A stretch of DNA of 60,220 nucleotides from Sporopachydermia quercuum (lineage: Eukaryota). Numbering within the stretch: the stretch's first letter is position 1; every line of letters starts with the position of its first letter. The translations under genes were made by a program, and so were the position numbers. The stretch spans positions 1,240,001 through 1,300,220 of the forward strand of contig BCGN01000008.1 in assembly GCA_001599295.1 (NCBI GenBank), read 5' to 3'. Positions 22,275 through 40,722 of the stretch are shown piece by piece. A model generated the notes under the pieces. The model ran no database searches. It was not told the origin of the DNA and worked only from the letters and a program-made list of their open reading frames with translations.

Positions 22275-24047
22275 ATGATCCGAATGTCGGAAAATTTGGC
22301 ATATGATATACACCGAGACAGATTTCGGAAAGATGAAGATGACGATGATGATGNTGAAAATTGGTTCCGAAATGAAGAAATTATATCTGAGAGAGTTTTG
22401 AATGAACTAGATAGTAATAAAGGAGAAGAAAATGGAACGATGGTAGAAACTGGGAATAATATGAAAAAAATAGCCAAAAACAAAGCTTCCAATAGACCGA
22501 GAAAATCAACTCGAAGTTCTCTGAGGAAGAAATCTCGAACCTTCCAAATGGCCCCTGAACTTCAACATAAACCATCAATAATAAGTGCTTCGGGCATACC
22601 AATCCTGGATCATCCGAAACTTGATGAGTTAGATAAACAACTGACATCATTTCCGTTGGCGCCTCCCGCTGCAGTGAAGCGGAGTTCCCAAGCCGAAGCG
22701 GAGTTTGATGGAGATTCCGACTATGGTGGGGAAATAACTGTTGTTGATATTCAGCAAGCGGCTTTAGAACAACTGGCGAGATCGGAATCTGATGAGACAG
22801 AATCGATAGCGAATGGGGGGTTTGACACAAAAACGGATTGGGAACCCGAAGCGGGATTACAAAGAGAAAGAATGGCGGAAGGGGAAACAGAGTTTAATGA
22901 GAATATGCAGTTTCTGTCACTACTAGATGCAGAATTAACACCTAGACGGGAGAAAAAGCCAAACCGAAGAGATGTGAATGATGTTACTACCAGATCCAAG
23001 TCAGGAAAAGATGCCGCAGTTTTCAAATACGACGAGATAATCCTAATTGAGAACTATTTTTATCAATTCGGTAAAGACACGAACTCAAAGAGACCGTTTC
23101 GACAAAAATTACTTGACATGATCACTTCTTTACTCAATCTGGAAACTCATACTTCAACTTTATTACCCGCCCTGCCGCAAATTCCGTCTTCGGATGAAAG
23201 CATTGGCATCTTTCCTTCCCCTTCTGGGTGCTCTCTTGCTTCCGAGCTATCTAGTTTCGCCTTTCCTGTGACCCAGAAGCAACCTTCGGTATTGCACAGT
23301 CAGTCAATATCCGCTTCCGGCCCCGATTTTGAGGCTAATCGGCTTTTGTGTTGTTTAATGTGCCGTAAACCTTTATATGAATTTAGCACCCATTTTTGTC
23401 ATTCTTCACAGTTATCTTTAAATTCTATTGATGATTTACAGTTCATATGTTCTACGTGTTTGGAAGAGTATGATGTGTTAGTGTCAGCATTTGAGGTGTA
23501 TATGGGAAGTGATTTTATGTATTCAGAGAATGGAAACAGAAGCGAAAATGGATTGCTTATTGGTGTAGTAGATCCCGACATATTGTTACTGTTAGGAATG
23601 AAAGATGAGTCTGAAAAAAGGATAACAGATAATACCACAAAAGATATCGGAGGCAAACGGAATATAAGTGACGTTTCAAAGTTGACTACTTCCGGTTATT
23701 CCGAGCAGTCAAATTCAAGCACCGGTTTCAACAACNACTCCAACGACGATGAATTTACTGAGTTGAGTACCGATAATCATGTGGTGAGTCCCGAATTACT
23801 ACAGAAATTGCATGGTTACTTAATTCCGAGCTCCCGGAAGAACTCGGATGCAAATTTCGAATCTAACTTATCTTCCAAGTCTAATATGTCTGGCGTTATT
23901 TCTTCCTATGATCAATACCTATATATAAGGAAACATTATCAACAGCTATCCGATATCTTTTCTGAAGTTCATCGGAAGTTGAGATGGAGATGGCGGCTTA
24001 AAGGGTTAATTAGAATCCCAAAAAATTCTAGATCATGTAATATATAA
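22275..24047 (+). CDS. Hypothetical protein, 590 aa, with a putative zinc-binding motif
   Basis: Long ORF; CLMC...(~27 aa)...CSTC pair; basic/aromatic C-terminal KLRWRWRLKGL; otherwise low complexity. Confidence 0.7.
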   Translation: MIRMSENLAYDIHRDRFRKDEDDDDDXENWFRNEEIISERVLNELDSNKGEENGTMVETGNNMKKIAKNKASNRPRKSTRSSLRKKSRTFQMAPELQHKPSIISASGIPILDHPKLDELDKQLTSFPLAPPAAVKRSSQAEAEFDGDSDYGGEITVVDIQQAALEQLARSESDETESIANGGFDTKTDWEPEAGLQRERMAEGETEFNENMQFLSLLDAELTPRREKKPNRRDVNDVTTRSKSGKDAAVFKYDEIILIENYFYQFGKDTNSKRPFRQKLLDMITSLLNLETHTSTLLPALPQIPSSDESIGIFPSPSGCSLASELSSFAFPVTQKQPSVLHSQSISASGPDFEANRLLCCLMCRKPLYEFSTHFCHSSQLSLNSIDDLQFICSTCLEEYDVLVSAFEVYMGSDFMYSENGNRSENGLLIGVVDPDILLLLGMKDESEKRITDNTTKDIGGKRNISDVSKLTTSGYSEQSNSSTGFNNXSNDDEFTELSTDNHVVSPELLQKLHGYLIPSSRKNSDANFESNLSSKSNMSGVISSYDQYLYIRKHYQQLSDIFSEVHRKLRWRWRLKGLIRIPKNSRSCNI

Positions 24048-26203: not shown

Positions 26204-27931
26204 ATGAGCTCTATTCACTTCATAAGAGATATTCCCCGTAAATATAATTCCAGCAATTGTCCGGCTGCAGTGCTGACAATTGCAGGTTCAGATAGTAGTG
26301 GAGGAGCTGGAATTGAGGCCGATCTGAAAACTATTAGTGCTCATCAATGCTACGGGCTTACTTGTATTACAGGACTGACAGCGCAGAATACTACTGGTGT
26401 GAAAGGCATTCACACTATTGAGCCTGATTTCATTGCAAAAGTACTGGATACTAATTTCAATGATATTAACATCAAAGCCATCAAAACTGGTATGTTAGCA
26501 ACCAGTGGTAATATCAAGATGGTTTCTGAAAAACTTCAAGAACATGATTTTAAAGGGCCTATAGTTGTAGATCCTGTAATGGTATCAACATCGGGAGCTC
26601 GTTTACTTGAAGAAGAAGCAACAGATGAATATTTACATAAGCTATTTCCAATTGCTTCTATTATTACCCCTAATATTCCTGAAGCTAAATATATTCTGAA
26701 ATGTCTTGGTAGAAACGTTGAGCTGTGTTCAATTGATGACATGAAAGCCGCTTGTAAAGCTATCGTTGAATCTACTGGTTGTCAGGCTGTATTAATAAAA
26801 GGCGGGCATCAACAGAGATCTTCTAATGGTTATAAATTGCTAACGAAAAAAAGCATCAATAGCGTTATGGTAGACGTTTTATATCAGAAATCTAATGATG
26901 AGTATACATTGTTTGTATCGAAATACCTTGACAGTGATAACACTCACGGTACTGGTTGTACTCTTTCTTCAGCTATAGCTTGTAATTTAGCAAAGAGTGT
27001 GGGTTTAACTGCTGCTGTTCACTCTGCTATCTCATATGTTCATTGTGCTATTCAGTCAAGTCCTTCAAAGGAATCACTTGGATTCAAAGGTCATGGGCCA
27101 TTAAATCATTTGGTCTCAACACTTAAAGTTCCTTTTGCTCCAGGACATTTTATTCCTTTTCTAAAAACCCATCCAAAGGTTGTTGAGGTATGGGATATAT
27201 ATACCAGAACACATCCATTTTTAGTTGAGCTAGGTCAAGGAACGCTTCCTACTGTGAAGTTCAAGTATTACTTGATGCAAGATTATAGGTACTTGGTCCA
27301 TTACGCCAGAGCTCATGGATTAGCTAGTTTTAAAGGTAGCGATCTTGTCACGATAGTTGACAATGCAAAAATTATACAGAACATTGATAAAGAAATGACT
27401 TTACATATAAACTTTTGCAATGAATTTGGTGTATCACAAGAAGAATTGACAGATGATGATAAAAACCCAGAAGGAATGGCAACTTTTGCGTATACTAGAT
27501 TTTTAACTGATATAGGTATGCAGGGTGATTTGGCTCAATTGGAGATTGCCTTAGCACCATGCTTGTTAGGATATGGTGATGCAGCAACTAATATATATAA
27601 TAATCCATTAAGTAAAAAAGGTATGTTAGTTTTCAAGAAGCTGTTAAATTTTATGCGGTTAGGATAAATTGCTTGTCAGTGTGATGTATCTTCATTATTA
27701 TTAGACTACTAACAAATCACCTAATTAGAAAACAATAAATATTGGAGATGGGTTGAAAACTACTTATCTCCTGACTTCAAACAGGCTTCTAAAACAGGTG
27801 AAGAAATCCTAGAAGAAAGATTTGCAAATGCTTCACCTGAGAAAGTTGAGGAATGTATCAAGACGTTTGTTAAAGTCGTTAACTTTGAAATCCAATTTTG
27901 GCAGCAGGCAATGGACTATGCGGGGAATTGA
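26204..27931 (+). CDS. THI20: HMP/HMP-P kinase - TenA (thiaminase II) fusion; exons 26204-27620, 27729-27931; 539 aa
   Basis: VLTIAGSDSSGGAGIEADLKT, IKTGML, VVDPVMVSTSG, THGTGCTLSSAIA, then TenA (YLMQDYRYL, APCLLGY). An intron GTATGT(27621)...TACTAAC(27707)...TAG(27728) restores the C-terminal YWRWVENY...FEIQFW. Confidence 0.92.
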
Positions 27932-28690: not shown

Positions 28691-31600
28691 ATGTATTCCT
28701 CACAGATTAATGGATCAACGGCTCATTTGCAAGGAAAGGAACTCTGGTCAAAAGTTCAGCCAAGGTCAAGTTCAAAGACGAAGTCAAGAGTTTGGTCAAG
28801 ACTTTCAACTTCCTTTTCACCAAATGCAAAACTTTTCTCGACTCCCTTGCCTTTAAAGGGTTTTCATAAGTCGAAAAGCTCTAACTATAGCATGGACTCT
28901 GATTCTTCGTATTTTGATGCTTCACCTATGTTTGAAGAGTGCTATGATGATGTAGGAACTACACCGGGAACTGTAGACAACAGTTTTGAATTGGATATCG
29001 GGATAAATGGAGAGTTGGATTTTACACTACCAGGTTTTGAAGAGAATAGTAGTGAAATCGACATTAAGCGCAAGACTCAAATGAAAAACATTCATAAATA
29101 CTGTGTTTTATGTGATGAACCCTTAACGCACTTCAATGATGATGAAAGATTCATATTGTTAACCTGTGAACATGGTGTTCATAGCGATTGTATTAAAGTT
29201 TTTCTCTCATCACCAGAATTAAAAAATGGTGAGCTCCAAATAAGTGATTTGATGCCAAGTTGTCCTTTATGTGGCGTGAATATGTGCTTAGCTGACAAAA
29301 ATGATGAACAAAACATTTTCAATGAAATTATCCTTGGACAATCTCCTGTGGATATATTTACTAATGCCTGTGAACCCAGAAGTGACTCTATGGCTAACGT
29401 GTCTAGTTTAAAGAAGTCCCCTGTTCAGTTTGACAAAGCAACAACAATGTTTTGTTCCGCATTGGATACTGTTCAACAATCAGAAGTTTCATACTATTTA
29501 CCAAAATTCAATCCTGAGGTATCACCTGTAAGTCCATTATTCAAGAAAGGTAAATTAGCTATTACTTTCAAACAGAAACAAGAACTTTTAGCTGGAGTTT
29601 GGGAGATTTTCCTCAAGCCAAAAATATCAATAACCTGTGATCGCCAAGTAATTAGCTATCCTGAGAGTTCATCATCTACAACAGTGACATGCTTGATAGA
29701 TATTGATTTTAAGAAATGTTTTTCAGAAGGCTTAATAATAATGGAAAATAGTAATGGAGATAGAAAGCCAATTGCCAATCTACAGCAGGAAGTCGGTGAA
29801 ATCATCAAAAGCAATGTGTCTGCTAAATGTCAGTCAGAATTGACTTCACAGTTGGGCTTCCCAAGAATATTTGAATATTTTACAGTATCGTTTGATACTA
29901 AAGAGTGGGAAGATTACTTTTGCATATTATATAGCAACTATCTTCTTTTCTTTAGGGAGACCACTCTTGGGCAAAAATACGAAATAGCAAAGAAAATACA
30001 ATTTGATGAGCTTAGTTCAGTTACTACACAAGCTGATCTAACTGGTACTTTAGTTCTTAGTGTGAACTCTCTATTGAATCCTATCGTATATATGAAAAAC
30101 AACTATGGAAAGAATTTGAAAACTTGGAAAACAATTTTGAAAGATCCTTTAATGCAAATTCAGAGTGAAAGTCTTGTAAATGCTTGCAACATTTGGAATA
30201 CCTTTACTGGTTCAAAGAAAGTAATCAAACTGATAGAATCAAGCAGTGAAGATCTATCTGAAAAGTTTTCTCAGTCACGGAGAATTAATAATAACTCAGA
30301 GATCTCTACTGTTGTTAATACAGTGGTAGTTATTCCTGTTAATGATTATATGTCAAACTGTAGCAAGTACACTAGAATAAAAGATATGCTGTATTGTATT
30401 CTTCAACAAATGAATCCGCAAGATTCTCTTGGAGTTGTTCTATATGGCAAATCTCTCAAAGTTAACTATATTGGAATGCTTAACAAGTACTGGACTGGTT
30501 GGACTGAATGGTTTGATTCTTATATAAAACCTAGTAAAAATGATACCAAAGAAATTAATCAAGAGATGATACAAGATTCTCTTAATGTTTCTTTGTCATT
30601 ATTGAGATACAAACAAACAGGCCAAGCAATTGATAATGTGTTGTTTCTTTCAGAGCAAGGAACAATAAAACTCACAGGTGATTTTGAAGAAAAATTCAGG
30701 GAATCAAACATGTCTTTATACGCAATCGGTGTTGGTCTTGAGCAAGACTCAAGTTCATTAATAGAATTGGCATTGCTAAGTAAAGAACCTGGTCAGTACG
30801 TGTTTTCTGAGGATTGGTTAGAAACAGCTTACATCTTACCAGGTATAATATCAACAAAGCAAAGCTATTGTTATTACAACGTTTCATTAGTTCTAAATAT
30901 GAAAGACGCAGAATATCTTCAGACTCATGAAGTAATTATCGGTGGTCAAGATAACGAACATTGCCGAAAAGGCGGTAGCACTAGTAGTACTGATGGAATA
31001 ACGAAGAAAAGTACATTTTACATGGGAAATTTACGAATGGGTTCTAAGAAAAGCATTCTTGCTGAAATGCAAATCAAGAAGGAAAGTATGCTATTAAGTG
31101 GAGATGTTGATGACGACGGTTCATGTCTTATACCTTTATTTCAACCAAAAATACAGTATTCTCATTTCTTGTCATCTGAGGCACATTCACATCATTGTTT
31201 TAGAGCTGCGGAACATAAAGAACTTGAATTCGAGGAGGTAACTGGAGATTTGGTGGAAGTAGAACTACAGACGTCACAGCAGCAATCACATAATACGGAT
31301 TGTATTAAGAACTATTCAATTATTAATAGTACTTTATCTGATGAAAATCAGCATAATAACAATGATGGAGATGATGATAGTTCTGTCAACCAACAGATAT
31401 CTCCTTATAGCAACAACACATCTACCTTTGAGGACTTCTCAACCACAATTGTTCAAGATACTGAAGTATCTTCATCAGAATCTTTAAAAAATGATTCTGT
31501 TTTGATTGACTTCTCAGTTGGTAAAATGTATGATTCAAAAGATGTAGAATTTCTGGACAACCAGTCAAAAGGTGAAATCAGCATTTCTGCTTCCTCATCA

Positions 31601-32212
31601 TCATTATCATCAAATGTAATTCCAAATTCATCTCTTTCATTCAGTGCTCAGAGCTCTCCAACAACTATTTATACTAAACAGCCTTGCTCTGAATTTGCAA
31701 AGCTGGATATAGCATTACTTCCAACGCTTCTCAATCAAACACCTGGCTATATCCTTAAACGCATAGAACTATTAATTATGCATTGTTTGCAGCAACTGCT
31801 TATCAAGAATAATAATACAGTAATGGAGAAACTGTCATTGGTTTCAGGATTGATTAGAGAGTTAGAGAGTAAAGTGAATTATTGTAATAATAATAACGTT
31901 AGTAGTCAGTTGTATGGTAACAATGACAGCGAAAGTGTACGATTAGCCAAAGCACTCAGATTTGAGCTTCAGTCGTTGTGTTCATTGGCAGAGGTAAAAC
32001 AAGAGAAAATAGAGAAGATGGTGTATAATAAAGCGTTGGAACTAATAGGAATTATCAACACCCAGGAGTGTGTTTGGTCAAGAATATGTGAAGAGAATGG
32101 TCTTGAAGGATATTACCAAAACAAGTATGAGAATCTGAAGAGCAGCAAGCAGTTGGTTGATATGTACATGAAGAATAATAAATGTGGTTATGGGGGACTA
32201 AATAGGATTTGA
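28691..32212 (+). CDS. RING-H2 / PH-like / vWA protein of the Far1-Ste5 pheromone-signalling scaffold family
   Basis: RING-H2 CVLCDEPL...CEHGVHSDC...CPLC; central PH-like region (WEDYFCILYSNYLLFF); vWA-like region (VVVIPVN...DSLGVVLY...LYAIGVG). This domain order matches Far1/Ste5. Confidence 0.7.
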   Translation: MYSSQINGSTAHLQGKELWSKVQPRSSSKTKSRVWSRLSTSFSPNAKLFSTPLPLKGFHKSKSSNYSMDSDSSYFDASPMFEECYDDVGTTPGTVDNSFELDIGINGELDFTLPGFEENSSEIDIKRKTQMKNIHKYCVLCDEPLTHFNDDERFILLTCEHGVHSDCIKVFLSSPELKNGELQISDLMPSCPLCGVNMCLADKNDEQNIFNEIILGQSPVDIFTNACEPRSDSMANVSSLKKSPVQFDKATTMFCSALDTVQQSEVSYYLPKFNPEVSPVSPLFKKGKLAITFKQKQELLAGVWEIFLKPKISITCDRQVISYPESSSSTTVTCLIDIDFKKCFSEGLIIMENSNGDRKPIANLQQEVGEIIKSNVSAKCQSELTSQLGFPRIFEYFTVSFDTKEWEDYFCILYSNYLLFFRETTLGQKYEIAKKIQFDELSSVTTQADLTGTLVLSVNSLLNPIVYMKNNYGKNLKTWKTILKDPLMQIQSESLVNACNIWNTFTGSKKVIKLIESSSEDLSEKFSQSRRINNNSEISTVVNTVVVIPVNDYMSNCSKYTRIKDMLYCILQQMNPQDSLGVVLYGKSLKVNYIGMLNKYWTGWTEWFDSYIKPSKNDTKEINQEMIQDSLNVSLSLLRYKQTGQAIDNVLFLSEQGTIKLTGDFEEKFRESNMSLYAIGVGLEQDSSSLIELALLSKEPGQYVFSEDWLETAYILPGIISTKQSYCYYNVSLVLNMKDAEYLQTHEVIIGGQDNEHCRKGGSTSSTDGITKKSTFYMGNLRMGSKKSILAEMQIKKESMLLSGDVDDDGSCLIPLFQPKIQYSHFLSSEAHSHHCFRAAEHKELEFEEVTGDLVEVELQTSQQQSHNTDCIKNYSIINSTLSDENQHNNNDGDDDSSVNQQISPYSNNTSTFEDFSTTIVQDTEVSSSESLKNDSVLIDFSVGKMYDSKDVEFLDNQSKGEISISASSSSLSSNVIPNSSLSFSAQSSPTTIYTKQPCSEFAKLDIALLPTLLNQTPGYILKRIELLIMHCLQQLLIKNNNTVMEKLSLVSGLIRELESKVNYCNNNNVSSQLYGNNDSESVRLAKALRFELQSLCSLAEVKQEKIEKMVYNKALELIGIINTQECVWSRICEENGLEGYYQNKYENLKSSKQLVDMYMKNNKCGYGGLNRI

Positions 32213-32325
32213 GGAAGGAAGGAAGAAAATCTGATGGACTAGTAGCTAATAGCAATAGTAAGTAAACAGTATATCTACAAATTGTTCTTATATTCATTAT
32301 TTCATTATCCATCATCTATTGTAAC

Positions 32326-33705
32326 TCAGTCAGAATTACTATCAATTAATCCTCGTAACGTCAAATCATATATTATTCCATCAACTTTCTTCAAATCATA
32401 TTTGATACTATCATTCCGCCTTCTCAGTAAATCATTCTTGAAATTCAACTGCAAGAATCCCTGTTGAATATTTCTTATAAAATGTGCTATCCGAGTAATA
32501 GAAGAATACATTTTCCGTTTCATGATAGGAGTTATACTATTGGTAGAAGCCGTAGAAATTGCTACTACGAAGTTTGGTGTGAATGCTGCTAATTCATTCG
32601 ATAGGTTGGTCATTCCTATCAAATAATCTTCAGCTGTTAACACGAAAATATCGGAGTTACCTTGTAATTCTGGATTTGGTGTCTGATATCCTGATAGTTC
32701 ATTGAAATGTTCATATTGAACTCCAAGTATACCAGCTATGAATTCAGGGCGTAGAACAAACTGTAATGGTGCTCCGAATTCAAATTGAATGGCTAGATTG
32801 TTAATGAATGCTTCCAATAATAAAACATAACTAGCTGTTTGCATATTGTTTGACCATTTTCTGTAAAAAGCATTTGATGGTTGGTAAACAAACTCTGAAA
32901 TAATACTAGTTTTACGACTGTTCTGCTCGTTACCATTATTATCATTTGTTGGCACGCCTTCTTCATCAATTTCGTTGTCATGAATGCCATTATTCGAGCT
33001 ATAAAGGTTCCTATAATCGTCCTTCATCGAAGATATCTCTGTAAATACTTGTTTTATTGTTTGCTCGTCTTTCATCTTTTGAATAATACTTGCATAGTTG
33101 ATGGGACTAGTTGTATGGATATCTGAGAGTATTGATAAAGAACGTTTCAACAATGTTTCAACGTTACTCAGCCTTTTTATCAAGCAAANTTCCATACTTT
33201 CTTGCATATCAATTATACTTTTGATACTGTGAATAATGCTATTGAAACTTCTGTCGTTTGAACCCCTTGCCGTAATCGTATCAACTCTTGCACTATCTAA
33301 GGGATACTGTACAGTTATAGCTTCTCCAGAAACAATATTAGGTTCAGCTCTTCCTGTATCCTCATACGTTTCGGGAACATAGTTCTGGCTTACAGCACTT
33401 TTAGTCAGATTATGAACACGTCGTAGATGCCTTCCTAATACTCCTGTAGATCCAGTTCGATCTTTTGCAATTGACGCTCCGCAAACTGCTAGCCGATCAT
33501 AATGACCATTGGCATCTGGTTCAAGTACTGGCAATGGTAAAGCAGGTGGAAATCTTGGATTGTACTTAATGCGTTTCGGTAGAAAGCATTTATATTTTGT
33601 GGAATCATCAGGATCGGTACGGAAATAAGTCCACACGAAAGACGATTTATGATACTTTCTAGGTGTTCCCTGTGCCTGATGATCCAAATTGTCTTGAGGA
33701 TCCAT
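32326..33705 (-). CDS. BED-type zinc finger - Translin domain fusion protein (paralogue A), 459 aa
   Basis: N-terminal SSFVWTYF...C-x34-C...GSTGVLGRHLRRVH (BED-like). The C-terminal EDYLIGMTNLSNELA...FIRNIQQGFLQLNFKNDLLRRRNDSIKYDLKKVDGIIYDLTLRGL matches the Translin signature. Confidence 0.85.
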   Translation of the reverse strand: MDPQDNLDHQAQGTPRKYHKSSFVWTYFRTDPDDSTKYKCFLPKRIKYNPRFPPALPLPVLEPDANGHYDRLAVCGASIAKDRTGSTGVLGRHLRRVHNLTKSAVSQNYVPETYEDTGRAEPNIVSGEAITVQYPLDSARVDTITARGSNDRSFNSIIHSIKSIIDMQESMEXCLIKRLSNVETLLKRSLSILSDIHTTSPINYASIIQKMKDEQTIKQVFTEISSMKDDYRNLYSSNNGIHDNEIDEEGVPTNDNNGNEQNSRKTSIISEFVYQPSNAFYRKWSNNMQTASYVLLLEAFINNLAIQFEFGAPLQFVLRPEFIAGILGVQYEHFNELSGYQTPNPELQGNSDIFVLTAEDYLIGMTNLSNELAAFTPNFVVAISTASTNSITPIMKRKMYSSITRIAHFIRNIQQGFLQLNFKNDLLRRRNDSIKYDLKKVDGIIYDLTLRGLIDSNSD

Positions 33706-34636
33706 TAGAGCAATTGGATGTACAATGCGTGTTCTGGGATTCAGATAGAAGTTTTAGAAAAGAAACGTTAAGCTGTANATTTGAATGACCTTGAATGATA
33801 GTTTAGATAGTAAGATTATAANATATAATAAAAGATTTAATTTTACCCTTTGTTGACATGTATGGTAGAAAGATTACCGAGAGGAGAAGTGATTTGAAGT
33901 ACCCAAGAACATGTATTTTTAGTTTAAGTTAATGCATCAATATGCTAGTCAAACTAAGGTTTTATTTGCGAAGACAAATAATGATTATGTGATGAAGAAA
34001 AGCAGCAGAATTCTATAAAATAAAGTTCCGAATAAGCAGAGCTTGGAAGTTTACTAGTTCAGTAATAGATTTGAAGGACTAATAGCCTAACATAAATATC
34101 AAAAAATAAATATATTTTTCTAATTGTCGCTGAGGTTTAATAAATTTTGAGGTCTGAATAAACAGCTTTGGGAGAATGCAGCCACTTCTGACCTTTTATT
34201 CAGCTAAGTACTGGAATATATAAGCAACGTATGTTGACGAATTTTCTACTTGNTAACTTTCAAACTCTAATCTTAGCAATGAGAGTAGTTCAAAAGGTAA
34301 GGGTGAGATCTTTCTGGGCGCAATTAACATATCAAAATACATAATATAAGGAAAAGTAAAAAAACCAGTCAACGCCTAATCCTCCTACCTGCTTAGCTTG
34401 ATATTCTAAATCCATCGTCATCTGCTCTGTCTTTATCTCTGAACAGGAATTGAAACATAAATGTAGTAATAACAACTTTAATTGAATCTCGCATTGCTTA
34501 GCACCAAATATAAACCTTATTTCATCTATCCCTCATGTTGCGATCAAGCCCTTCAAATCTATATCGCACGGATTCCTACAATGAATCCCCAAACAACTTA
34601 TATACAATATAATATCAATCAATTCTATTCTATTTA

Positions 34637-35683
34637 TCATAGTCTAGATTTGCTCAAAATTCCTCTTAACAATTCATTTACTGTCTCACCAGTTCCATAT
34701 GAGAGTTCATATCCCATACCTCCAGCTCCATAAGCATGAACAATGGTGGTTGAATCTATTTTTTCAACTTCGATCCTCATTCCACCATCTCTAGCAGGTC
34801 TAAAACCCACATTTACATTCTTAACATCAAATTTGCCATTTATCATTAGTTCAGGATATAGTTTCTTACCTCTTTCCATCAAATCGATTGAATCTTGTTG
34901 TCTAGGCGTACTTTGTAAGTCATTCAATTGCTTGGTTCCTCCAAGAATAACACCACCATATAGCGGTCTAGGGATAACAAAAGTCCACAAACCATCTCTA
35001 TTTTGATGAGTGACAGTTTTGTTCAAGTAGGGACAATTTTGTGGAGCTCTTACTAACAATGTTTGACCTCTGATTGGAAAACACTTTCCGTCATATCCAC
35101 CGTTATACTGCAATCCTTGACCTGACGCATTGACAATAATAGCGTTTGGATACAACTTGCTTACTTGTTTCAATGAGTTGAGGTGAACCTTTTGGAATTG
35201 AACTCCATACTTCATAGCTAATTTCCTTTGTAGATATTGTATATATAACGGAGCATTAAGAACCCAAGTATCATAACTGAAACCAACGTCCGTACCTGAA
35301 GGTAATTCAGACTTGTCCAATTGCCGGAAGTTTTCCATTTCTTCTTTATAGCCAGGAGTACAGTTCGAATAAAATCTATCAGGAGATTCTATGTATTCAA
35401 TGGCTGGGACGAATCTGATTGATGATTCTGGTTCATGTTCAGCAAGTTTTCTAAAATATCTCTGAGTAGATCTTGTCAGCTTTGCTTCAGATGCTTCAGT
35501 AGCATTTTTACTAGGAAATGGTCTGAAATGAGCACCAGCCCATGGAGAAGTATATGACGAGTTTAAGGGGTCTGTTGGTAAATGCGCACTTAGAATTATA
35601 ATATCATCCTGTCCGTTTTCAGCTAATACCAAAGCACAGGAGAGTCCAATGACTCCTGCTCCGACTATAACAATTCTAGCCAT
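34637..35683 (-). CDS. Peroxisomal D-amino-acid (or D-aspartate) oxidase
   Basis: IVIVGAGVIG FAD motif, YTSPWAGAHF, PIRGQT, VGFRPAR, HAYGAGGMGYELSYG and C-terminal PTS1 -SRL. Confidence 0.92.
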   Translation of the reverse strand: MARIVIVGAGVIGLSCALVLAENGQDDIIILSAHLPTDPLNSSYTSPWAGAHFRPFPSKNATEASEAKLTRSTQRYFRKLAEHEPESSIRFVPAIEYIESPDRFYSNCTPGYKEEMENFRQLDKSELPSGTDVGFSYDTWVLNAPLYIQYLQRKLAMKYGVQFQKVHLNSLKQVSKLYPNAIIVNASGQGLQYNGGYDGKCFPIRGQTLLVRAPQNCPYLNKTVTHQNRDGLWTFVIPRPLYGGVILGGTKQLNDLQSTPRQQDSIDLMERGKKLYPELMINGKFDVKNVNVGFRPARDGGMRIEVEKIDSTTIVHAYGAGGMGYELSYGTGETVNELLRGILSKSRL

Positions 35684-36922
35684 GACAGAAATAAACTTTT
35701 AAGAGATNCAAGANAAGTCAGCAAATTGTTCTTTATAACAACCGTAAGAATCAATGGCTTCGTAGTTCCCTTGTAACCAGAAACTAAACAATCACTATGA
35801 TAAGGACAAGAGCATACAAATAAATTCTTTCAGTTCTTAAGTCTGTTAGTAGTCCAACAACACGCCCCGGTTTGGAACCATTTATTATTGCAATCTATAT
35901 CTATCTATACCTCACGGAAAATGAGACATGGATCGAAGAAAATAGTGAATGGCCAGCTAAATTACCACTACGAAGAGACTCGTTTTCTGATGTCGAACCA
36001 TTTAACGTTTACGTGCTGAAGCCTTTAACAAATTAAAGTTCAACTTAAAAGGCTAACTATCATTATGAACCTGGAGATGGGACAGAACATTATACTTTCT
36101 ATCGTTTTCATACATTGGATGGTTTTTCAATTGAAGGAATGGATAATCGAAATTTGTGTTTACGCAGTCGAGCGCTTTAGCAGCTAGTCATTTTCAACAA
36201 TCCTTTTTAACAGTCACTAGTGAAATAAGAGCTTGATATGCATGCATTAAAGACACATTCCCAATGTACATCTTCTTCGATTCCTTTCTTTAGATTCTTG
36301 CTATTGAACCTACTTCTAACAGCCCCATGTCATGGGACGTCAAGTAGTAAACTACCTCTCTTTGGACATAAATGCNGGTTTTGTATGCAATCATCAAATG
36401 TCTACTGATAAATGGCAGAGCACAAGCAGTTATTGTAGCAAGTTCAGTCGCAATAAATCGTCTTAATAGCTATAATCTAAGACTTTGATAACTATCGTAA
36501 ACACCACTCCAGGTTAACTATTAACGGTTTATTTCATTGACCGCTGGAGCAATTACGATACAGTCGTTTTTACTACTAGGGCTCCAAAGCATCAATTCTC
36601 ATCGCGAAATCAAACATAAACCATAAGAAAAGAGCTATAATTTATGTCAAGGATTAGCAGTAATCCTAGAAAACCAATAAGTATAAAATAAAGGCAACTT
36701 GTTAATGAGAAAAACATCACGAGTATGCAGCAACAAGAAAGAAAAACAAGCGATTAGACGGATAAGCTACGCAAGACTATTCATAAATGAAGTTATGCGA
36801 ACTAGATCAACTCACTAATCAGTTAACCTCTGATGTTAAAACTAATATAANAGCATTCAAGCATAAAGATCTGCATCGAGAGTGCCACCTCATACTAATT
36901 AAATCATCAAGAACGTTCAAAT

Positions 36923-38788
36923 ATGACGAACCTCACTGACACCCATAATCATGATCATAGCAATAGTATTACCATATCCACTAACGCTTCTACCAATACT
37001 ACACTTGGATCAGCAAACAACTCNGAACGAACTTCAGTTTCCACCGTGAAATCATTCAAGAAAAGGAAACCAAAATTTGCAAGAAGTTTTTTCCAATTAG
37101 ATCCGACAACAGGAACAAAGAATATCTGTTGTTTACCGAAAGATTTCACTTGCTCAATTGAAAACATAGCTAAGTATCTCAGTGAGCCGTTTACAATGCC
37201 AGTATTAGGAACGGTTGATGACATTGACTTATCAAGTGTATGTGGTGCAAGCTTTGTTGTTGATAGGACTGGCAGCACTGGCAATTTGACTCGTCATTTA
37301 GCCACGCATCATAATATTACAAAAGACATGTTCTGGGATGCTTTGAGATTCTTAGGCTTGAGTATTTTACCTTCTAAAAGGCCTAGCGTAAGTGGGAGTG
37401 TTAGGAATAATGTAAGGTCTAGTAATAATGCTGATGAAAGTACTTACCAATTACTGGGCGAAAGAAATTTGGAAGGGAACCAGAATAGTGGTTANACGTC
37501 TACTAAAAGAAGACGGACTGTTAGTACTAATCCCAACTCCGATCCTAATNCTAGTAGTATTAACACAGGTACTGCTACTGCTATTGTTGCTGCTACTAAT
37601 TCTATTGAAACTACTACACACGATAACANAGGCAGTAATACTCAGAACCAACATCCTTCTATACCTGTTCATTATATCAACTATCAAGAGAAACGTATTA
37701 TTAGTGACATATTCAACCAAATCGAAAAGCGACATGAGGCAAATACTAATAACGAAAACTACGATAAATTAGAAACCCATCTAACTTCAATGGAAACTGA
37801 GTTAGATCAAATACTAATATTCCTTGACTCATTGAGCCATAGTGAAGTTCCTACTAATTATTATAAACACCTTAAAATCGCAACTCCAGCAACATTGTTT
37901 TATAAGTTCAACAAGGAGCTAAATCTATTTTATGGCGAATGGGATAGAATACTCAGGAATGAAAATCAGAATGTAAATGCTAATATTTTTGATAGGGTGG
38001 GCAATATGGATGCGAATAACGACACCAGGAAAACGAATACCAACAATAAGCCGCTGTTTATGATGAGATCGCGATATAATTTACCAAATAAAACTTTATC
38101 CCTCTGGCATGGAATTGTCAGGAAAGCCTTTTTTTCAGCATTCTTATTGGATTTTCATAATTGGGCATCAATGGTTACCTCAAACTCAAAAAGACGACCA
38201 TCTAATTATTCTCAAATATCATTAGTTCAATCTTGGGGTAGCGATTTATCTGTTAATTCTATTGATACCTTAGTAGACAATATTGCATTCCGAACTAATG
38301 GTATTAACGATACTGAGGATGATGATAATGATGATGACAATGTTAGCAATAATGGCAAAAATAAGTTTTCTTCTAGAGGTCAGACTACAAATTTATTTAG
38401 TATTTCTATTAATGATTATATTGAAGCAATATTTGACTTTGCATATGAAATCGTCGAAATATCTATCAACATTCTTATCAACACTTCTGATAACCAATCA
38501 AAAAATATACCTCCAAGTGATGAGAAGAAAAACTTTACTATTGTTATATTATGTGGGAAATTCTTAAGAAATGTTATAGAAGGATTNAACTCAATAGAAA
38601 CAATTTGTATCAGTAAAGAGTNTAATGAACTTATCTTTGGTGGAAAACAAGAGGGAAACGTATATGACTATATCAAACGAAACTTCGGTGATAAATTAGG
38701 AGGGATAAGGAAAGAAAGTAAGACAATTGATGAGATCATATATGACTTATCGTTAAGAGGATTGTTTAGATCCAATTTGCTTGCATAG
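36923..38788 (+). CDS. BED-type zinc finger - divergent Translin domain fusion protein (paralogue B), 621 aa
   Basis: FARSFFQLDP...CCLPK...VCGASFVVDRTGSTGNLTRHLATHH is homologous to paralogue A; Translin-like ISINDYIEAIFDFAYEIV...IDEIIYDLSLRGL. Contains 6 N bases, including an ambiguous TAN codon. Confidence 0.75.
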   Translation: MTNLTDTHNHDHSNSITISTNASTNTTLGSANNXERTSVSTVKSFKKRKPKFARSFFQLDPTTGTKNICCLPKDFTCSIENIAKYLSEPFTMPVLGTVDDIDLSSVCGASFVVDRTGSTGNLTRHLATHHNITKDMFWDALRFLGLSILPSKRPSVSGSVRNNVRSSNNADESTYQLLGERNLEGNQNSGXTSTKRRRTVSTNPNSDPNXSSINTGTATAIVAATNSIETTTHDNXGSNTQNQHPSIPVHYINYQEKRIISDIFNQIEKRHEANTNNENYDKLETHLTSMETELDQILIFLDSLSHSEVPTNYYKHLKIATPATLFYKFNKELNLFYGEWDRILRNENQNVNANIFDRVGNMDANNDTRKTNTNNKPLFMMRSRYNLPNKTLSLWHGIVRKAFFSAFLLDFHNWASMVTSNSKRRPSNYSQISLVQSWGSDLSVNSIDTLVDNIAFRTNGINDTEDDDNDDDNVSNNGKNKFSSRGQTTNLFSISINDYIEAIFDFAYEIVEISINILINTSDNQSKNIPPSDEKKNFTIVILCGKFLRNVIEGXNSIETICISKEXNELIFGGKQEGNVYDYIKRNFGDKLGGIRKESKTIDEIIYDLSLRGLFRSNLLA

Positions 38789-39297
38789 AAAAATGTTAAA
38801 AATGTATAAAAGCTTGAATATGTGTAGTTCAAATGTGTAGATAAGGAGAATCTCTCAGTTTATGGACTAAAACAACTACCGAAAAAAAGTATATACCACT
38901 AAACAAGTTTCCCTAGATTATGGATATGTTACAAAAATGAAAACAGGAAGTAATGCTTCCGAATATCTCCAAACATTGTATTGTTATATATAATTATATA
39001 TATTAACAGTGCTTGCAGGCAACTTTTAACTTTATAATATAAGTACTCCCTACTTTCATTTTGTTTTTCTTATAACAGAACATTTTATACCTTACGATAT
39101 TCTTCTTTCTAAGTAACATTATATCTACATAAAAAAAAGTTCCTCAACCTATTTCAAAATCACCAGATCATTTCCCTTTGAACTAAATACTCAGTTAAGT
39201 CACATATTTTTGAATTTTTTTTGAATTTTTCCATTGCTTCGATTCTATTCTATAGTCTGGTTCATTATAATCTTCTATAATCTAATCTCTATTTATC

Positions 39298-40722
39298 CTA
39301 TTCCTTCCTTAAATTAAACTTCTTTCCTTGATAGTTTCTCAATTGTTCGCCTTTTAGTATCAAAACACCAGAAGCCAATCCTCCTATTATCAACGCAACA
39401 GCAGAAATACAACAAGTCCATCCAATTCCTATATTTTCAATTTGTATCAAAACTGTACCAGTAGCTATGGCAGCAGCTACGAATCTAATCATATAATTAC
39501 CGGCAATAGCATCCCCTTTAATTTCTGGCATAGAATCAACACAGTATGAATTGATACTAGGAAATGAGATAGTTTGAGCTAATCCTGTTATAAACATAGA
39601 TATAACTGTCAAAGGAATTCCGCCTTTCTTATACCGCAATGTCCAACCATAAATTAACATACTGATAGGCATAATTATCCCATGAGCAGTAATTGTCGCT
39701 CTCAGTCTATCTTCAGGTATTCTTCTACCTCTTATTTTAACATACTTATTGACAAAGTAGTCTGCTAGATGCCCGCCAATAAATGATCCTATTAAATATC
39801 CAATTCCAGGTGCTAGATAAAATAAACCTGCATAAATAGGATCCTCTAAATGGTATCTAGGATTGATAACATATCTTATAGGTGTGAGCAAAGCATACAT
39901 ATTATAGTGAATAGACACACTGACTGTTCCAATTAACATCAAACTTGGGTATTTCAGCGATAGAATTACTTTGAAAGGATTCACAGGTACCCAAATGAAG
40001 CTTTTGCCAGTTTCTTGTTTTAGCTGTTCATGTTTCAGATGCATCCCAGTTTCTGGTAGATAGAAATATACTAATAGAAAATTAATGAACCCCAGTCCTG
40101 CTAATATCCAAAATATTACTCTCCAAGTTGTGAAGTTAACAATGATGCCACCAAAACAAGGACCAAAAGCGGGACCAAGCTGCGAACCAGAGAGAATCCA
40201 GCCCATTGCTCTACCTCTTTCATTAGGAGGATATATGTCACCAACTATGGAAGCACCAGTTGAGAAAAACGCAGTGCCAAAAAATGCTGATAAAGATCTG
40301 AAGATGTAAAACATCGCTAGGTTTTCAGAGAAACCAACAATTAGGGTGGTAACAGCAAATATGAGCAAACTTAATACGAATATAATTCTTCTACCATATA
40401 TATCACCAAAAGGACCTAACACACAAGGTGATACCGCCATAATAATACAATAAACAGCATTGGAAACATTGATAATAGTTCCAGTAGTGTTGAATCTGAT
40501 CGCTATTTCTTGGACAGCAGGTAAGAAAGCTAGTGAGCTCAAGGGTGATAATAAACACGATATTGACACAAGAAAGACGAAGAAAGACTTTCTACTAGAG
40601 CTAAACCTAGTATAATGAGAATCTAAGGATGCCTGATCAACTTGCTCTTCCTCCTTTTCTTCATCAGCTCTTGCAAATTCCTCATCTTTCAGTTCTTTGG
40701 TGTTAGAGAGAGGGGTTTTCAT
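39298..40722 (-). CDS. MFS transporter, DHA1 drug:H+ antiporter family (Qdr/Dtr1-like)
   Basis: About 12 hydrophobic segments; GPFGDIYGRR (motif A), VGDIYPPNERGRAMG, GPAFGPCFGG, WRVIFW, LPET, PEDRL. Confidence 0.9.
   Translation of the reverse strand: MKTPLSNTKELKDEEFARADEEKEEEQVDQASLDSHYTRFSSSRKSFFVFLVSISCLLSPLSSLAFLPAVQEIAIRFNTTGTIINVSNAVYCIIMAVSPCVLGPFGDIYGRRIIFVLSLLIFAVTTLIVGFSENLAMFYIFRSLSAFFGTAFFSTGASIVGDIYPPNERGRAMGWILSGSQLGPAFGPCFGGIIVNFTTWRVIFWILAGLGFINFLLVYFYLPETGMHLKHEQLKQETGKSFIWVPVNPFKVILSLKYPSLMLIGTVSVSIHYNMYALLTPIRYVINPRYHLEDPIYAGLFYLAPGIGYLIGSFIGGHLADYFVNKYVKIRGRRIPEDRLRATITAHGIIMPISMLIYGWTLRYKKGGIPLTVISMFITGLAQTISFPSINSYCVDSMPEIKGDAIAGNYMIRFVAAAIATGTVLIQIENIGIGWTCCISAVALIIGGLASGVLILKGEQLRNYQGKKFNLRKE

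What the first reader, a model, noticed from the sequence alone, without database searches (positions are those of the whole stretch)
32326..38788. Pair of BED-zinc-finger-Translin fusion genes: candidate undescribed nucleic-acid-binding system
Seen: two divergently oriented paralogues share an N-terminal module (A ~33412-33646, B ~37073-37312): aromatic motif, C...CGAS...DRTGSTG-L-RHL---H. Both end in a Translin fold (...IIYDL[TS]LRGL). Known: Translin is normally a stand-alone ~230-aa protein that forms octamers alone or with Trax (C3PO RNase) and binds ssDNA/RNA; S. pombe Tsn1/Tfx1 affect telomeric transcripts. BED fingers are DNA-binding domains typical of hAT transposases and their domesticated derivatives. 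Inference: a transposase-derived DNA-binding module was fused to Translin and then duplicated, potentially giving a multivalent, DNA-targeted Translin ring acting in transcription control, transposon defence or telomeric-RNA control. I know of no characterised protein with this architecture.
Basis: partly seen in the sequence, partly recalled or inferred. Interest (0 to 1): 0.9.

Follow-up and report, generated by a model that had tools for sequence, protein, structure and literature searches.

The report
Paired zinc-finger–Translin fusion genes in yeast
A budding-yeast-type genome carries two neighbouring, anciently duplicated genes in which a Translin nucleic-acid-binding domain is joined to an unusual BED-like zinc finger; the searches made here found this arrangement nowhere else, and its function is untested.

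Summary
Gene A (32326-33705, minus, 459 aa) is a clear full-length Translin: Pfam 4.1e-24, and profile-profile 99.9% over residues 151-456. Its N-terminus carries a BED-like C2H2 finger. Both halves of that finger match Pfam zf-BED separately and in order, but about 34 residues are inserted between the two cysteines.

Gene B (36923-38788, plus, 621 aa) shares this split finger (40% identity, E 2e-13). It ends in a strongly diverged Translin domain that falls below Pfam's threshold. A custom HMM, hhalign and a model (Z 17.1 to solved Translins) support the domain. B has lost the conserved KND..RRR..KYD motif.

A D-amino-acid-oxidase gene lies between A and B. A complex prediction supports an A-B heterodimer (0.81 against 0.01 for the best control), though this may reflect memory of solved Translin dimers.

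None of 153 retrieved Translin relatives carries the finger. Metagenome scans, Atlas clusters and literature searches gave no fused relative.

Three things remain open:
- B's codon 191 reads TAN, so it could be a stop.
- No RNA data and no whole genome were available, so I could not check for a canonical Translin or Trax.
- The BED fold itself could not be modelled.

I rate this a new domain architecture of known parts. Its function is inferred, not shown.

The parts
32326..33705 (-). Gene A: 459-aa BED-like finger + Translin fusion protein, one continuous ORF
   Evidence: ORF. Pfam Translin 4.1e-24. Identical, with no indels, in one contig each of two runs from two studies; either may be the source of this DNA.
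33409..33636 (-). A: split BED-like zinc finger (residues 24-99). N-half residues 24-40 (FVWTYF...C40), about 34-aa insert, C-half residues 75-99 (C75...H93-x4-H98)
   Evidence: Residues 24-40 match zf-BED profile positions 3-19 (E 0.033). Residues 75-99 match positions 22-44 (E 0.011). The module scanned alone scores 25.0 bits, E 1.9e-5. Atlas finds zf-BED clusters at 0.94.
32338..33255 (-). A: complete Translin domain (residues 151-456), with a low-complexity insert around residues 230-270
   Evidence: hhalign against 35 stand-alone Translins: 99.9%, E 5.3e-35, profile columns 5-224 of 253. PDB phmmer hits are all Translin, about 1e-14. Own HMM gives 165 bits.
34637..35683 (-). Intervening D-amino-acid-oxidase-type gene. 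Not part of the pair, but it separates them.
   Evidence: Pfam DAO 1.8e-30.
36923..38788 (+). Gene B: 621-aa diverged paralogue with the same architecture. The frame contains 6 unknown bases.
   Evidence: ORF. BLASTP to A: N-module E 2e-13, C-terminus E 1e-8. N count.
37073..37312 (+). B: split BED-like finger (residues 51-130). The tryptophan of the aromatic pair is replaced by arginine.
   Evidence: zf-BED 16.4-16.9 bits, E 0.007-0.01, profile positions 22-44 only. Alignment A2.
37493..37495 (+). B codon 191 = TAN, in the linker between finger and Translin domain. It codes Tyr or a stop, depending on the unknown base at 37495.
37697..38773 (+). B: diverged Translin-like domain (residues about 259-617) with long inserts. 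The YDLSLRGL end is kept and the KND..RRR..KYD motif is lost.
   Evidence: Own Translin HMM: 29 bits in three collinear pieces. hhalign 94.7%, E 5.8e-8 for residues 489-617. Model pLDDT 75.5. Z 17.1, rmsd 2.9, 219 of 226 residues aligned to 8z7a_E.

Best explanation
Genes A and B are real protein-coding paralogues in a budding-yeast-type genome that uses the standard genetic code. Each encodes an N-terminal basic BED-like C2H2 zinc finger, a flexible linker and a Translin domain.

Shown: the architecture, the paralogy, and A's full complement of Translin hallmarks.

Inferred: the fusion arose once, because both copies share the same roughly 34-residue insertion between the finger's two cysteines, and it was then duplicated locally in inverted orientation.

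Inferred mechanism:
- A builds the Translin-type oligomeric barrel that holds single-stranded DNA or RNA.
- B has kept the fold and the predicted dimer surface but has lost the conserved basic C-terminal motif. It joins A as a specialised, probably non-binding or regulatory subunit. This would resemble the way Trax partners Translin, although B descends from Translin, not from Trax.
- The several zinc fingers on such a ring would anchor it to particular DNA (or RNA) sites in the nucleus.

Nothing seen here indicates nuclease activity in the pair itself.
For: Architecture:
- Pfam Translin for A is 86.1 bits against a cut-off of 25.9.
- hhalign of A residues 151-456 against 35 stand-alone Translins gives 99.9%, E 5.3e-35.
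- All 9 distinct PDB sequences matched by A are Translin, E 1.6e-14 to 1.9e-12.

Finger:
- A's module alone scores 25.0 bits on zf-BED, E 1.9e-5; B's scores 16.4 bits.
- A's two halves hit zf-BED separately and in order, profile positions 3-19 and 22-44. zf-BED was the only family hit for the N-half and the best for the C-half.
- C40, C75, H93 and H98 are invariant in both copies.
- Atlas: 13 of 30 nearest clusters fall in the zf-BED set, at 0.94.
- The module's pI is 10.1 in A and 8.4 in B, against 5.4 for the Translin parts.

Paralogy: BLASTP gives 2e-13 for the N-module and 1e-8 for the C-terminus.

B as Translin:
- Own HMM, built without A or B, gives 29 bits in three collinear pieces.
- hhalign gives 94.7%.
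- The model has pLDDT 75.5 and pTM 0.73. Its best structural matches are Translins at Z 15.3-17.1. Archaeal C3PO scores about 11.5 and unrelated chains 8.7 or less.
- B ends in IIYDLSLRGL, the Translin consensus.

A-B binding:
- Complex prediction scored 0.81 against a best of 3 controls of 0.01.
- That mark was reached by 51 of 78 solved complexes and 2 of 108 mismatched pairs. On eukaryotes it was reached by 39 of 65 solved pairs with no like complex among older structures and 2 of 126 unrelated pairs.
- The runs agree in at least 46% of contacts, and the partner's pLDDT is at least 52.

Coding status: gene A's ORF is identical in contigs of two runs from two studies. CTG reads as Leu.
Against: - B's codon 191 is TAN and may be a stop. 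That would cut the finger from the Translin part.
- B holds 6 of the window's 35 unknown bases (P about 7e-4). It is below Pfam's Translin cut-off (21.3 against 25.9) and has lost the KND..RRR..KYD motif. It may therefore be decaying.
- The finger lacks the canonical CxxC. A in full-length context is below the zf-BED cut-off (19.1 against 20.6), and so is B.
- A profile of the finger found no solved BED structure, and its model is unusable at pLDDT 37.
- B's model was built from an alignment rich in Translins, so its fold match is not independent evidence.
- The complex pass may be memory of solved Translin-Translin and Translin-Trax dimers.
- No orthologue was found, so there is no conservation evidence outside this one locus.
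- DNA binding, oligomer state and expression are untested.
Confidence: 0.55

Rival explanations
1. Only A is functional, as a homo-oligomeric finger-Translin. B is a duplicate under relaxed constraint or a recent pseudogene, possibly with a nonsense allele at codon 191.
For: Codon 191 is TAN. B holds 6 of the 35 unknown bases, 3.2 per kb against 0.41 per kb over all 18 long ORFs. B has lost the conserved Translin motif and carries long inserts. It is below the Pfam cut-off and has no PDB sequence hit.
Against: About 430 codons stay open after codon 191, and 190 before it in the same frame, in roughly 35% GC DNA. The finger's zinc ligands and DRTGSTG are fully kept. The predicted A-B interface scores 0.81 against 0.01 (with its caveats).
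Confidence: 0.25
2. The N-terminal module is not a DNA-targeting BED finger. It is instead a zinc-binding or degenerate module for RNA or protein contacts. The proteins would then do ordinary Translin work on RNA or single-stranded DNA, possibly with a canonical Trax encoded elsewhere.
For: No CxxC. Pfam scores are marginal. No solved BED structure was matched. The fold was not modelled. The genome could not be searched for Trax.
Against: Both halves hit zf-BED in profile order. Atlas gives zf-BED clusters at 0.94. The module is strongly basic. The aromatic pair plus C...C...H-x4-H pattern is present.
Confidence: 0.25
3. Gene-model artefact. The finger and the Translin domain are made as separate proteins, through an internal start, an intron or separate transcripts.
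For: No RNA data could be obtained. B's TAN codon sits exactly in the linker.
Against: In both paralogues the two modules lie in one frame with no stop, apart from the unresolved TAN in B. In B the first Met after codon 191 lies beyond residue 360, inside the Translin domain. The N-module is the best conserved part between the paralogues.
Confidence: 0.05
4. B is the lineage's Trax orthologue, which gained the finger from A by recombination. The pair would then be a finger-tagged C3PO nuclease.
For: It is a two-paralogue system with a predicted heterodimer. B diverges strongly from Translin.
Against: B ends in the Translin consensus IIYDLSLRGL. In every C3PO entry listed, the best-matching chain for B's model is the one that names Translin (3axj_A, 3pja_A, 3riu_A; for 3qb5_B the assignment is by the tool's one-best-chain rule and was not checked). 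The model was biased by a Translin alignment. The Trax catalytic residues could not be tested.
Confidence: 0.05

Closest known systems
Stand-alone Translin (human/mouse TSN, Drosophila Translin, Trichoderma virens Translin 8z7a; fungal representatives P0001-P0024)
   Same: A matches the whole domain: 99.9%, 29% identity to the profile consensus, with the C-terminal LN.KND.LRRR.DS.KYD.KK..YDL.LRGL motif kept. B's model superposes at Z 17.1.
   Different: A has about 150 and B about 255 extra N-terminal residues, comprising a BED-like finger and a linker. Both have long inserts inside the domain, and B lacks the basic motif. The 150 best library relatives have a median length of 213.5 aa, and none carries the finger.
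Translin-Trax complex (C3PO)
   Same: Two paralogous Translin-fold subunits are predicted to heterodimerise. The Trax-Translin heterodimer is the recurring unit of C3PO (PMC6144819, passages read).
   Different: B looks Translin-derived, not Trax-derived. At E up to 1, A matches only Translin chains and no Trax chain. The catalytic Glu/Glu/Asp of Trax (Drosophila E123, E126, D204; PMC6144819) could not be mapped, because no Trax sequence was available. From recalled Trax sequence only, and untested, neither A nor B seems to have the two glutamates.
BED zinc fingers (Pfam PF02892; hAT transposases, ZBED, BEAF/DREF proteins; these names are recalled)
   Same: An aromatic pair, then C...C...H-x4-H with a TGST.L.RHL core. 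Both halves match the Pfam profile in order.
   Different: About 34 residues (A) or 36 (B) separate the two cysteines, in place of CxxC. There is no hAT catalytic or dimerisation domain and there are no terminal repeats. B replaces the tryptophan with arginine.
Other Translin fusions in the library (P0025, Translin + dUTPase, 441 aa)
   Same: A Translin domain joined to a second domain in one predicted protein.
   Different: The partner domain differs and sits C-terminally. It may be a gene-model merge, and it is unrelated to the finger.

Membership tests
Translin family (PF01997): gene A | Score above Pfam's gathering cut-off | tested here: met
   86.1 bits against 25.9, E 4.1e-24.
Translin family (PF01997): gene A | Match over the whole domain, including the conserved C-terminal motif | tested here: met
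   hhalign residues 151-456 to profile columns 5-224 of 253, 99.9%. Motif seen in alignment A1.
Translin family (PF01997): gene B | Score above Pfam's gathering cut-off | tested here: not met
   21.3 bits against 25.9, E 3e-4, profile positions 115-205 only.
Translin family (PF01997): gene B | Translin fold over the whole domain | tested here: met
   Model pLDDT 75.5. Z 17.1, rmsd 2.9, 219 of 226 residues aligned to 8z7a_E; unrelated chains score 8.7 or less. Best Foldseek E is 1.3e-3, so none reaches 0.001. Caveat: the model's alignment was mostly Translins. Own HMM gives three collinear pieces, 29 bits.
Translin family (PF01997): gene B | Conserved C-terminal LN.KND.LRRR.D..KYD motif | tested here: not met
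   It is replaced by an insert and unrelated residues. Only the final IIYDLSLRGL is kept.
Translin family | Oligomer assembly (dimer unit of the barrel) | tested here: inconclusive
   A-B prediction 0.81 against a best control of 0.01. This is a prediction only, and like complexes are solved. The A-A pair was not run.
Translin family | Binding of single-stranded DNA or RNA | not testable with these tools
   Needs biochemistry.
BED zinc finger (PF02892) | Score above Pfam's gathering cut-off (20.6) | tested here: inconclusive
   A scores 19.1 bits in the full protein and 25.0 bits as an isolated 87-aa module. B scores 16.4-16.9 bits.
BED zinc finger (PF02892) | N-terminal aromatic pair (definition of the feature recalled) | tested here: met
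   A has FVWTYF, matching profile positions 3-19. B has FARSFF, keeping only the Phe.
BED zinc finger (PF02892) | CxxC zinc knuckle (definition recalled) | tested here: not met
   The two conserved cysteines are C40 and C75 in A, with about 34 residues between them. The same layout is seen in B.
BED zinc finger (PF02892) | H-x(3-5)-H/C second ligand pair (definition recalled) | tested here: met
   A has H93-x4-H98; B has RHLATHH.
BED zinc finger (PF02892) | BED fold | tested here: inconclusive
   AlphaFold2 on the two-sequence alignment gave pLDDT 37.1. A PDB profile search gave no BED hit.
Trax / C3PO nuclease subunit | Trax-type sequence | tested here: inconclusive
   A matches 9 of 9 Translin sequences and no Trax chain at E up to 1. 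B matches neither by sequence.
Trax / C3PO nuclease subunit | Catalytic Glu, Glu, Asp (Drosophila E123, E126, D204; PMC6144819) | not tested
   No Trax or archaeal C3PO sequence could be obtained.
hAT transposase | Catalytic core and hAT dimerisation domain | tested here: not met
   No such Pfam hit in A or B at E up to 1. The proteins are too short.
hAT transposase | Terminal inverted repeats flanking the gene | tested here: not met
   In 31500-39500 the inverted pairs were 31 nt or shorter, and none flanks either gene as element ends would.

The most novel reading that the evidence does not exclude
In one budding-yeast lineage, a BED-type finger was fused to Translin and the fusion was then duplicated. 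This would independently re-create a two-subunit Translin system, a conserved core subunit A plus a diverged partner B, whose ring carries up to eight DNA-reading fingers and is stationed at specific chromosomal sequences. It would be the first natural case of a Translin barrel aimed at defined DNA loci, acting there on nascent or single-stranded nucleic acid (for example at repeats, telomere-proximal regions or transposon remnants).
Probability: 0.2. Interest if true: 0.75.

Novelty: new variant of a known kind. Interest (0 to 1): 0.55.

Why it matters
This paragraph rests on recalled background. Translin was first described as a protein that binds DNA at chromosomal breakpoints. Its firmly established activities, however, are on RNA, within the Translin-Trax nuclease. 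Whether it acts on DNA in cells remains unsettled.

A natural fusion of Translin to a finger of a DNA-binding type, kept in two copies, would be direct genetic evidence that in at least one lineage Translin works at defined nucleic-acid sites. A yeast would make that testable by ChIP, deletion and biochemistry.

The pair would also be a second, independent example of a Translin paralogue evolving into a diverged partner subunit, in parallel with the origin of Trax.

If B proves broken, or the finger inert, the locus is only a lineage-specific curiosity.

Tried and rejected
- **Whole-genome search for canonical Translin or Trax:** no genome is held. A handle-based route also failed.
- **Word-indexed protein searches:**
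  - A whole and A residues 10-110 returned nothing.
  - The alignment A1 returned 4 Translins, none carrying zf-BED.
- **Exact look-up of 7 other window proteins:** none is in the collection. The lineage is therefore poorly represented there, and the absence of orthologues is weak evidence.
- **Metagenome scans:**
  - The finger alignment gave 596 pattern matches and 0 relatives.
  - My degenerate pattern for the DRTGSTG.L.RHL core gave 2 matches. Both are chance hits in 53-58% GC DNA with stops nearby.
- **Prokaryote genome scan with a Translin alignment:** one locus, an intron-bearing fungal-type Translin. It was no help for the Trax residues.
- **RNA evidence:** no RNA holder was listed.
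- **Laying reads on the full stretch:** Only gene A could be laid, so base 37495 in B stays unresolved.
- **AlphaFold2 of the finger:** pLDDT 37.1, unusable.
- **PDB profile search with the finger:** only chance ribosomal L38 rows at E about 1.
- **DNA-level repeats or transposon ends around the genes:** none of note.
- **CTG=Ser reading:**
  - Considered because A's CTG at residue 427 aligns with a frequent Ser in KNDSLRRR.
  - Rejected because the 6 aligned CTG codons of the THI20-type gene face L, V, L, L, Y, V in the S. cerevisiae protein.
- **Earlier scan notes:** nothing near this locus, nothing by sequence, and the 8 Translin notes shown (of 37 found) were all prokaryotic.
- **Literature:**
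  - 'translin' + 'BED zinc finger' gave 1 irrelevant paper.
  - 'translin' + 'zf-BED' gave 0.
  - 'translin' + 'Saccharomycotina' gave 1 irrelevant paper.
  - 'translin', 'candida', 'zinc finger' gave 63 papers; the 15 listed were irrelevant because 'candida' matched 'candidate'.
  - 'translin', 'trax', 'C3PO', 'fungi' gave 3, none about fusions.
  - No supplements were opened.


Full report
**Setting**

The window is about 35% GC with long intronless ORFs. Their Pfam families are typical of a budding yeast: a GATA factor, a BET bromodomain protein, a THI20-type kinase, an alcohol acetyltransferase, TauD, MFS transporters and a D-amino-acid oxidase.

The bromodomains score similarly against the chains of entries 5n13/5n15 (molecule name 'Bromodomain-containing factor 1'; that they are Candida albicans Bdf1 is my recollection) and against the Candida glabrata chains. 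That does not place the organism in either clade.

CTG is read as Leu. The six aligned CTG codons of the THI20-type gene face L, V, L, L, Y, V in the S. cerevisiae protein, so the standard code was used throughout. The window holds 35 scattered unknown bases.

**The observation**

- Gene A is 32326-33705 on the minus strand, 459 aa.
- Gene B is 36923-38788 on the plus strand, 621 aa.
- They point away from each other but are not neighbours. A D-amino-acid-oxidase gene (34637-35683, minus; Pfam DAO 1.8e-30) lies between them.
- BLASTP of A against B gives two collinear matches. The N-terminal module shows 40% identity over 97 residues (E 2e-13). The C-terminus shows 22% over 135 residues (E 1e-8).
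- Both proteins end in IIYDL[TS]LRGL.
- A six-frame scan of the whole window with two HMMs, one of 35 stand-alone Translins and one of the finger, finds only A and B.
- No DNA-level repeat links the two loci, so the duplication is old.

**Gene A's Translin domain**

- Pfam Translin scores 86.1 bits (cut-off 25.9, E 4.1e-24) for residues 260-452.
- hhalign against 35 stand-alone Translins covers residues 151-456 and profile columns 5-224 of 253, at 99.9% probability, E 5.3e-35.
- A phmmer search of PDB returns 9 distinct sequences, all Translin (fly, human, mouse, Trichoderma), at E 1.6e-14 to 1.9e-12. No Trax chain appears at E up to 1, although, as far as I recall, several of those entries also contain Trax chains.
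- The conserved C-terminal motif is intact.

A is therefore a Translin, not a Trax, with a low-complexity insert and about 150 extra N-terminal residues.

**Gene B's Translin domain**

B is far more diverged.

- Pfam gives 21.3 bits, below the cut-off. PDB phmmer gives nothing relevant.
- My HMM built without A or B gives 29 bits in three collinear pieces: B residues 259-317, 486-554 and 595-617.
- hhalign gives 94.7%, E 5.8e-8, for residues 489-617.
- An AlphaFold2 model of residues 237-621 has pLDDT 75.5 and pTM 0.73.
- Foldseek's shown rows down to rank 38 are all Translin or C3PO entries. The best E is 1.3e-3, so none reaches 0.001. The first unrelated row is rank 44 at E 0.17.
- VIA-align gives Z 17.1, rmsd 2.9 Å, with 219 of 226 residues aligned to the Trichoderma virens Translin. 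It gives 15.3-16.5 to animal Translins, about 11.5 to archaeal C3PO, and 8.7 or less to unrelated helical proteins.

The model was built from an alignment dominated by Translins, so this fold match is not independent of the sequence evidence.

B has lost the LN.KND.LRRR.D..KYD block, which is replaced by an insert. It keeps the final Translin-type helix end.

**The N-terminal module**

- In the whole protein, A scores 19.1 bits on zf-BED, just under the cut-off of 20.6.
- Scanned alone, A's 87-residue module scores 25.0 bits (E 1.9e-5). B's scores 16.4 bits (E 0.0097). Both match profile positions 22-44 only.
- Scanning A's two halves separately showed why. Residues 24-40 (FVWTYF...C) match profile positions 3-19 (E 0.033, the only family hit). 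Residues 75-99 match positions 22-44 (E 0.011).
- The finger is therefore collinear with BED but split by about 34 residues between the two cysteines, where a BED finger has CxxC (this definition is recalled). B's N-half alone gave no hit.
- C40, C75, H93 and H98, the LPK after the first Cys, a PVL inside the insert, and VCGAS...DRTGSTG.L.RHL are invariant between A and B. Both copies thus share the same derived layout.
- The Atlas feature search on A residues 1-172 places it nearest zf-BED clusters: score 0.94, 13 of 30 hits in that set, with the family carried by 40%, 12% and 10% of members in the top three clusters.
- The module is basic, pI 10.1 in A and 8.4 in B, while the Translin parts are acidic at pI 5.4.

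Against this:
- A profile of the module found no solved BED structure.
- The AlphaFold2 model is unusable at pLDDT 37.1.

I call it a BED-like split finger, not a certified BED domain.

**Is it a transposase remnant?**

Nothing tested supports that. There is no hAT domain in either protein, and no terminal repeats or other repeats lie around the genes. The origin of the finger stays open.

**Do A and B bind each other?**

Complex prediction on A 140-459 with B 237-621 gave a median score of 0.81 against 0.01 for the best of 3 controls.

- The mark was reached by 51 of 78 solved complexes and 2 of 108 mismatched pairs.
- On eukaryotes it was reached by 39 of 65 solved pairs with no like complex among older structures, and by 2 of 126 unrelated pairs.
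- The runs agree in at least 46% of contacts, and the partner's pLDDT is at least 52.
- The confident contacts join B's first long helix (B 247-273) to A 312-320, 358-365 and 405-422.

Translin-Translin and Translin-Trax dimers are solved, so the pass may show likeness to those and not that this diverged copy still binds. The Trax-Translin heterodimer is the recurring unit of C3PO, and the catalytic residues lie in Trax: Drosophila E123, E126 and D204 (PMC6144819, passages read with 'find').

I could not bring any Trax sequence into the session, so those columns are untested in A and B. From recalled Trax sequence only, neither seems to have the two glutamates.

**Is B intact?**

- Codon 191, in the linker, reads TAN, so the unknown base at 37495 decides between Tyr and a stop.
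- B holds 6 of the window's 35 unknown bases. The binomial P is 7e-4 over the window, and 5e-5 among the 13 that fall in the 18 long ORFs.
- If these mark variable or uncertain sites, B is unusually variable.
- Against long-standing decay, 190 codons before and 430 after codon 191 are open in one frame in AT-rich DNA.
- The read tool could not be applied to B, because the pieces between unknown bases are too short.
- Gene A was identical, without indels, in one contig each from two runs of two studies. Either run may be the source of this DNA.

**Is the architecture known?**

- A full HMMER scan of 1.84 billion representative proteins with A gave 485 hits at E up to 1e-3 and none at 1e-30 or better.
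- In all 150 listed hits, the best stretch lies within A 269-459.
- Their median length is 213.5 aa and the maximum is 441 aa.
- Pfam on 14 of them, including the four longest, found Translin in 14 of 14 and zf-BED in 0 of 14. One is a Translin-dUTPase fusion.
- The finger HMM hit none of the 153 stored relatives. The best was E 0.098 at 5.5 bits.
- The three word-indexed searches found no fused form.
- All 30 of the nearest Atlas clusters to A's Translin part are Translin-only. The three shown are mostly Ascomycota, with representatives of 232-267 aa.
- Metagenome scans found nothing.
- Five literature searches found no paper that links Translin to a BED finger.

Limits on these negatives:
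- Seven other proteins of this window are also absent from the protein collection. This yeast lineage is therefore poorly covered, and sister species may well share the fusion.
- Only 150 of the 485 hits could be inspected.
- InterPro architecture tables were not available.

**Most likely working**

Shown:
- two paralogous ORFs, each joining a basic BED-like finger to a Translin domain;
- A with every Translin hallmark;
- B diverged, with the basic motif lost.

Inferred:
- a single fusion event followed by a local inverted duplication;
- A forms the Translin-type barrel;
- B co-assembles as a specialised subunit;
- the fingers tether the assembly to specific nucleic-acid sites in the nucleus. 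Basic KKRK and KRRR stretches in B fit nuclear import, but that is inference only;
- no nuclease activity is indicated.

The main alternatives:
- B is decaying.
- The finger does not read DNA.
- With low odds, the domains are expressed separately.
- With low odds, B is a Trax orthologue.

**Verdict**

I could find the architecture nowhere else, so it counts as a new variant built from known parts.

Its interest is moderate. It would rise if orthologues show that the fusion is maintained, if B proves intact, and if the finger binds DNA.

Noticed in passing
window 33778-38622: 13 of the window's 35 unknown bases fall in this 4.8-kb stretch: 6 inside gene B, 7 in intergenic DNA and none in the oxidase gene. 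If they mark heterozygous or uncertain sites, the locus around B is unusually variable.
   Followed up: partly
window 37493-37495: Codon 191 of gene B reads TAN, either Tyr or a stop. The ORF listing and translate tools print X there, so the 621-aa ORF depends on this one base.
   Followed up: partly
window 26204-27667 and other ORFs: CTG codons face Leu, Val or Tyr in the S. cerevisiae THI20 structure sequence (L, V, L, L, Y, V), so the organism reads CTG as Leu. CTG makes up 0.75% of codons in the 18 long ORFs.
   Followed up: yes
P0025 (library protein, 441 aa): A predicted protein with a full Translin domain (residues 81-287) followed by a dUTPase domain (residues 312-440). It is either another Translin fusion or a merged gene model.
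   Followed up: no
P0111 and P0152 (425-426 aa): Stand-alone Translins with very long charged inserts inside the domain. They show that insert expansion like that in A and B occurs in other lineages.
   Followed up: no
L003 1-1343 (contig titled as a Ferrimicrobium MAG): A fungal-type Translin (63% identity to a fungal representative) split over several frames as if by introns. It sits on a 4.6-kb contig of a bacterial metagenome-assembled genome and is probably eukaryotic contamination of the bin.
   Followed up: partly
window 28691-32212 (+): A 1173-aa ORF directly downstream of gene A, convergent with it. It has only weak RING-finger and PH-domain hints, all below Pfam cut-offs, so the protein is unexplained.
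   Followed up: no
window 22275-24047 (+) and 58633-60018 (+): Two long ORFs (590 and 461 aa) with no Pfam family at E up to 0.1.
   Followed up: no
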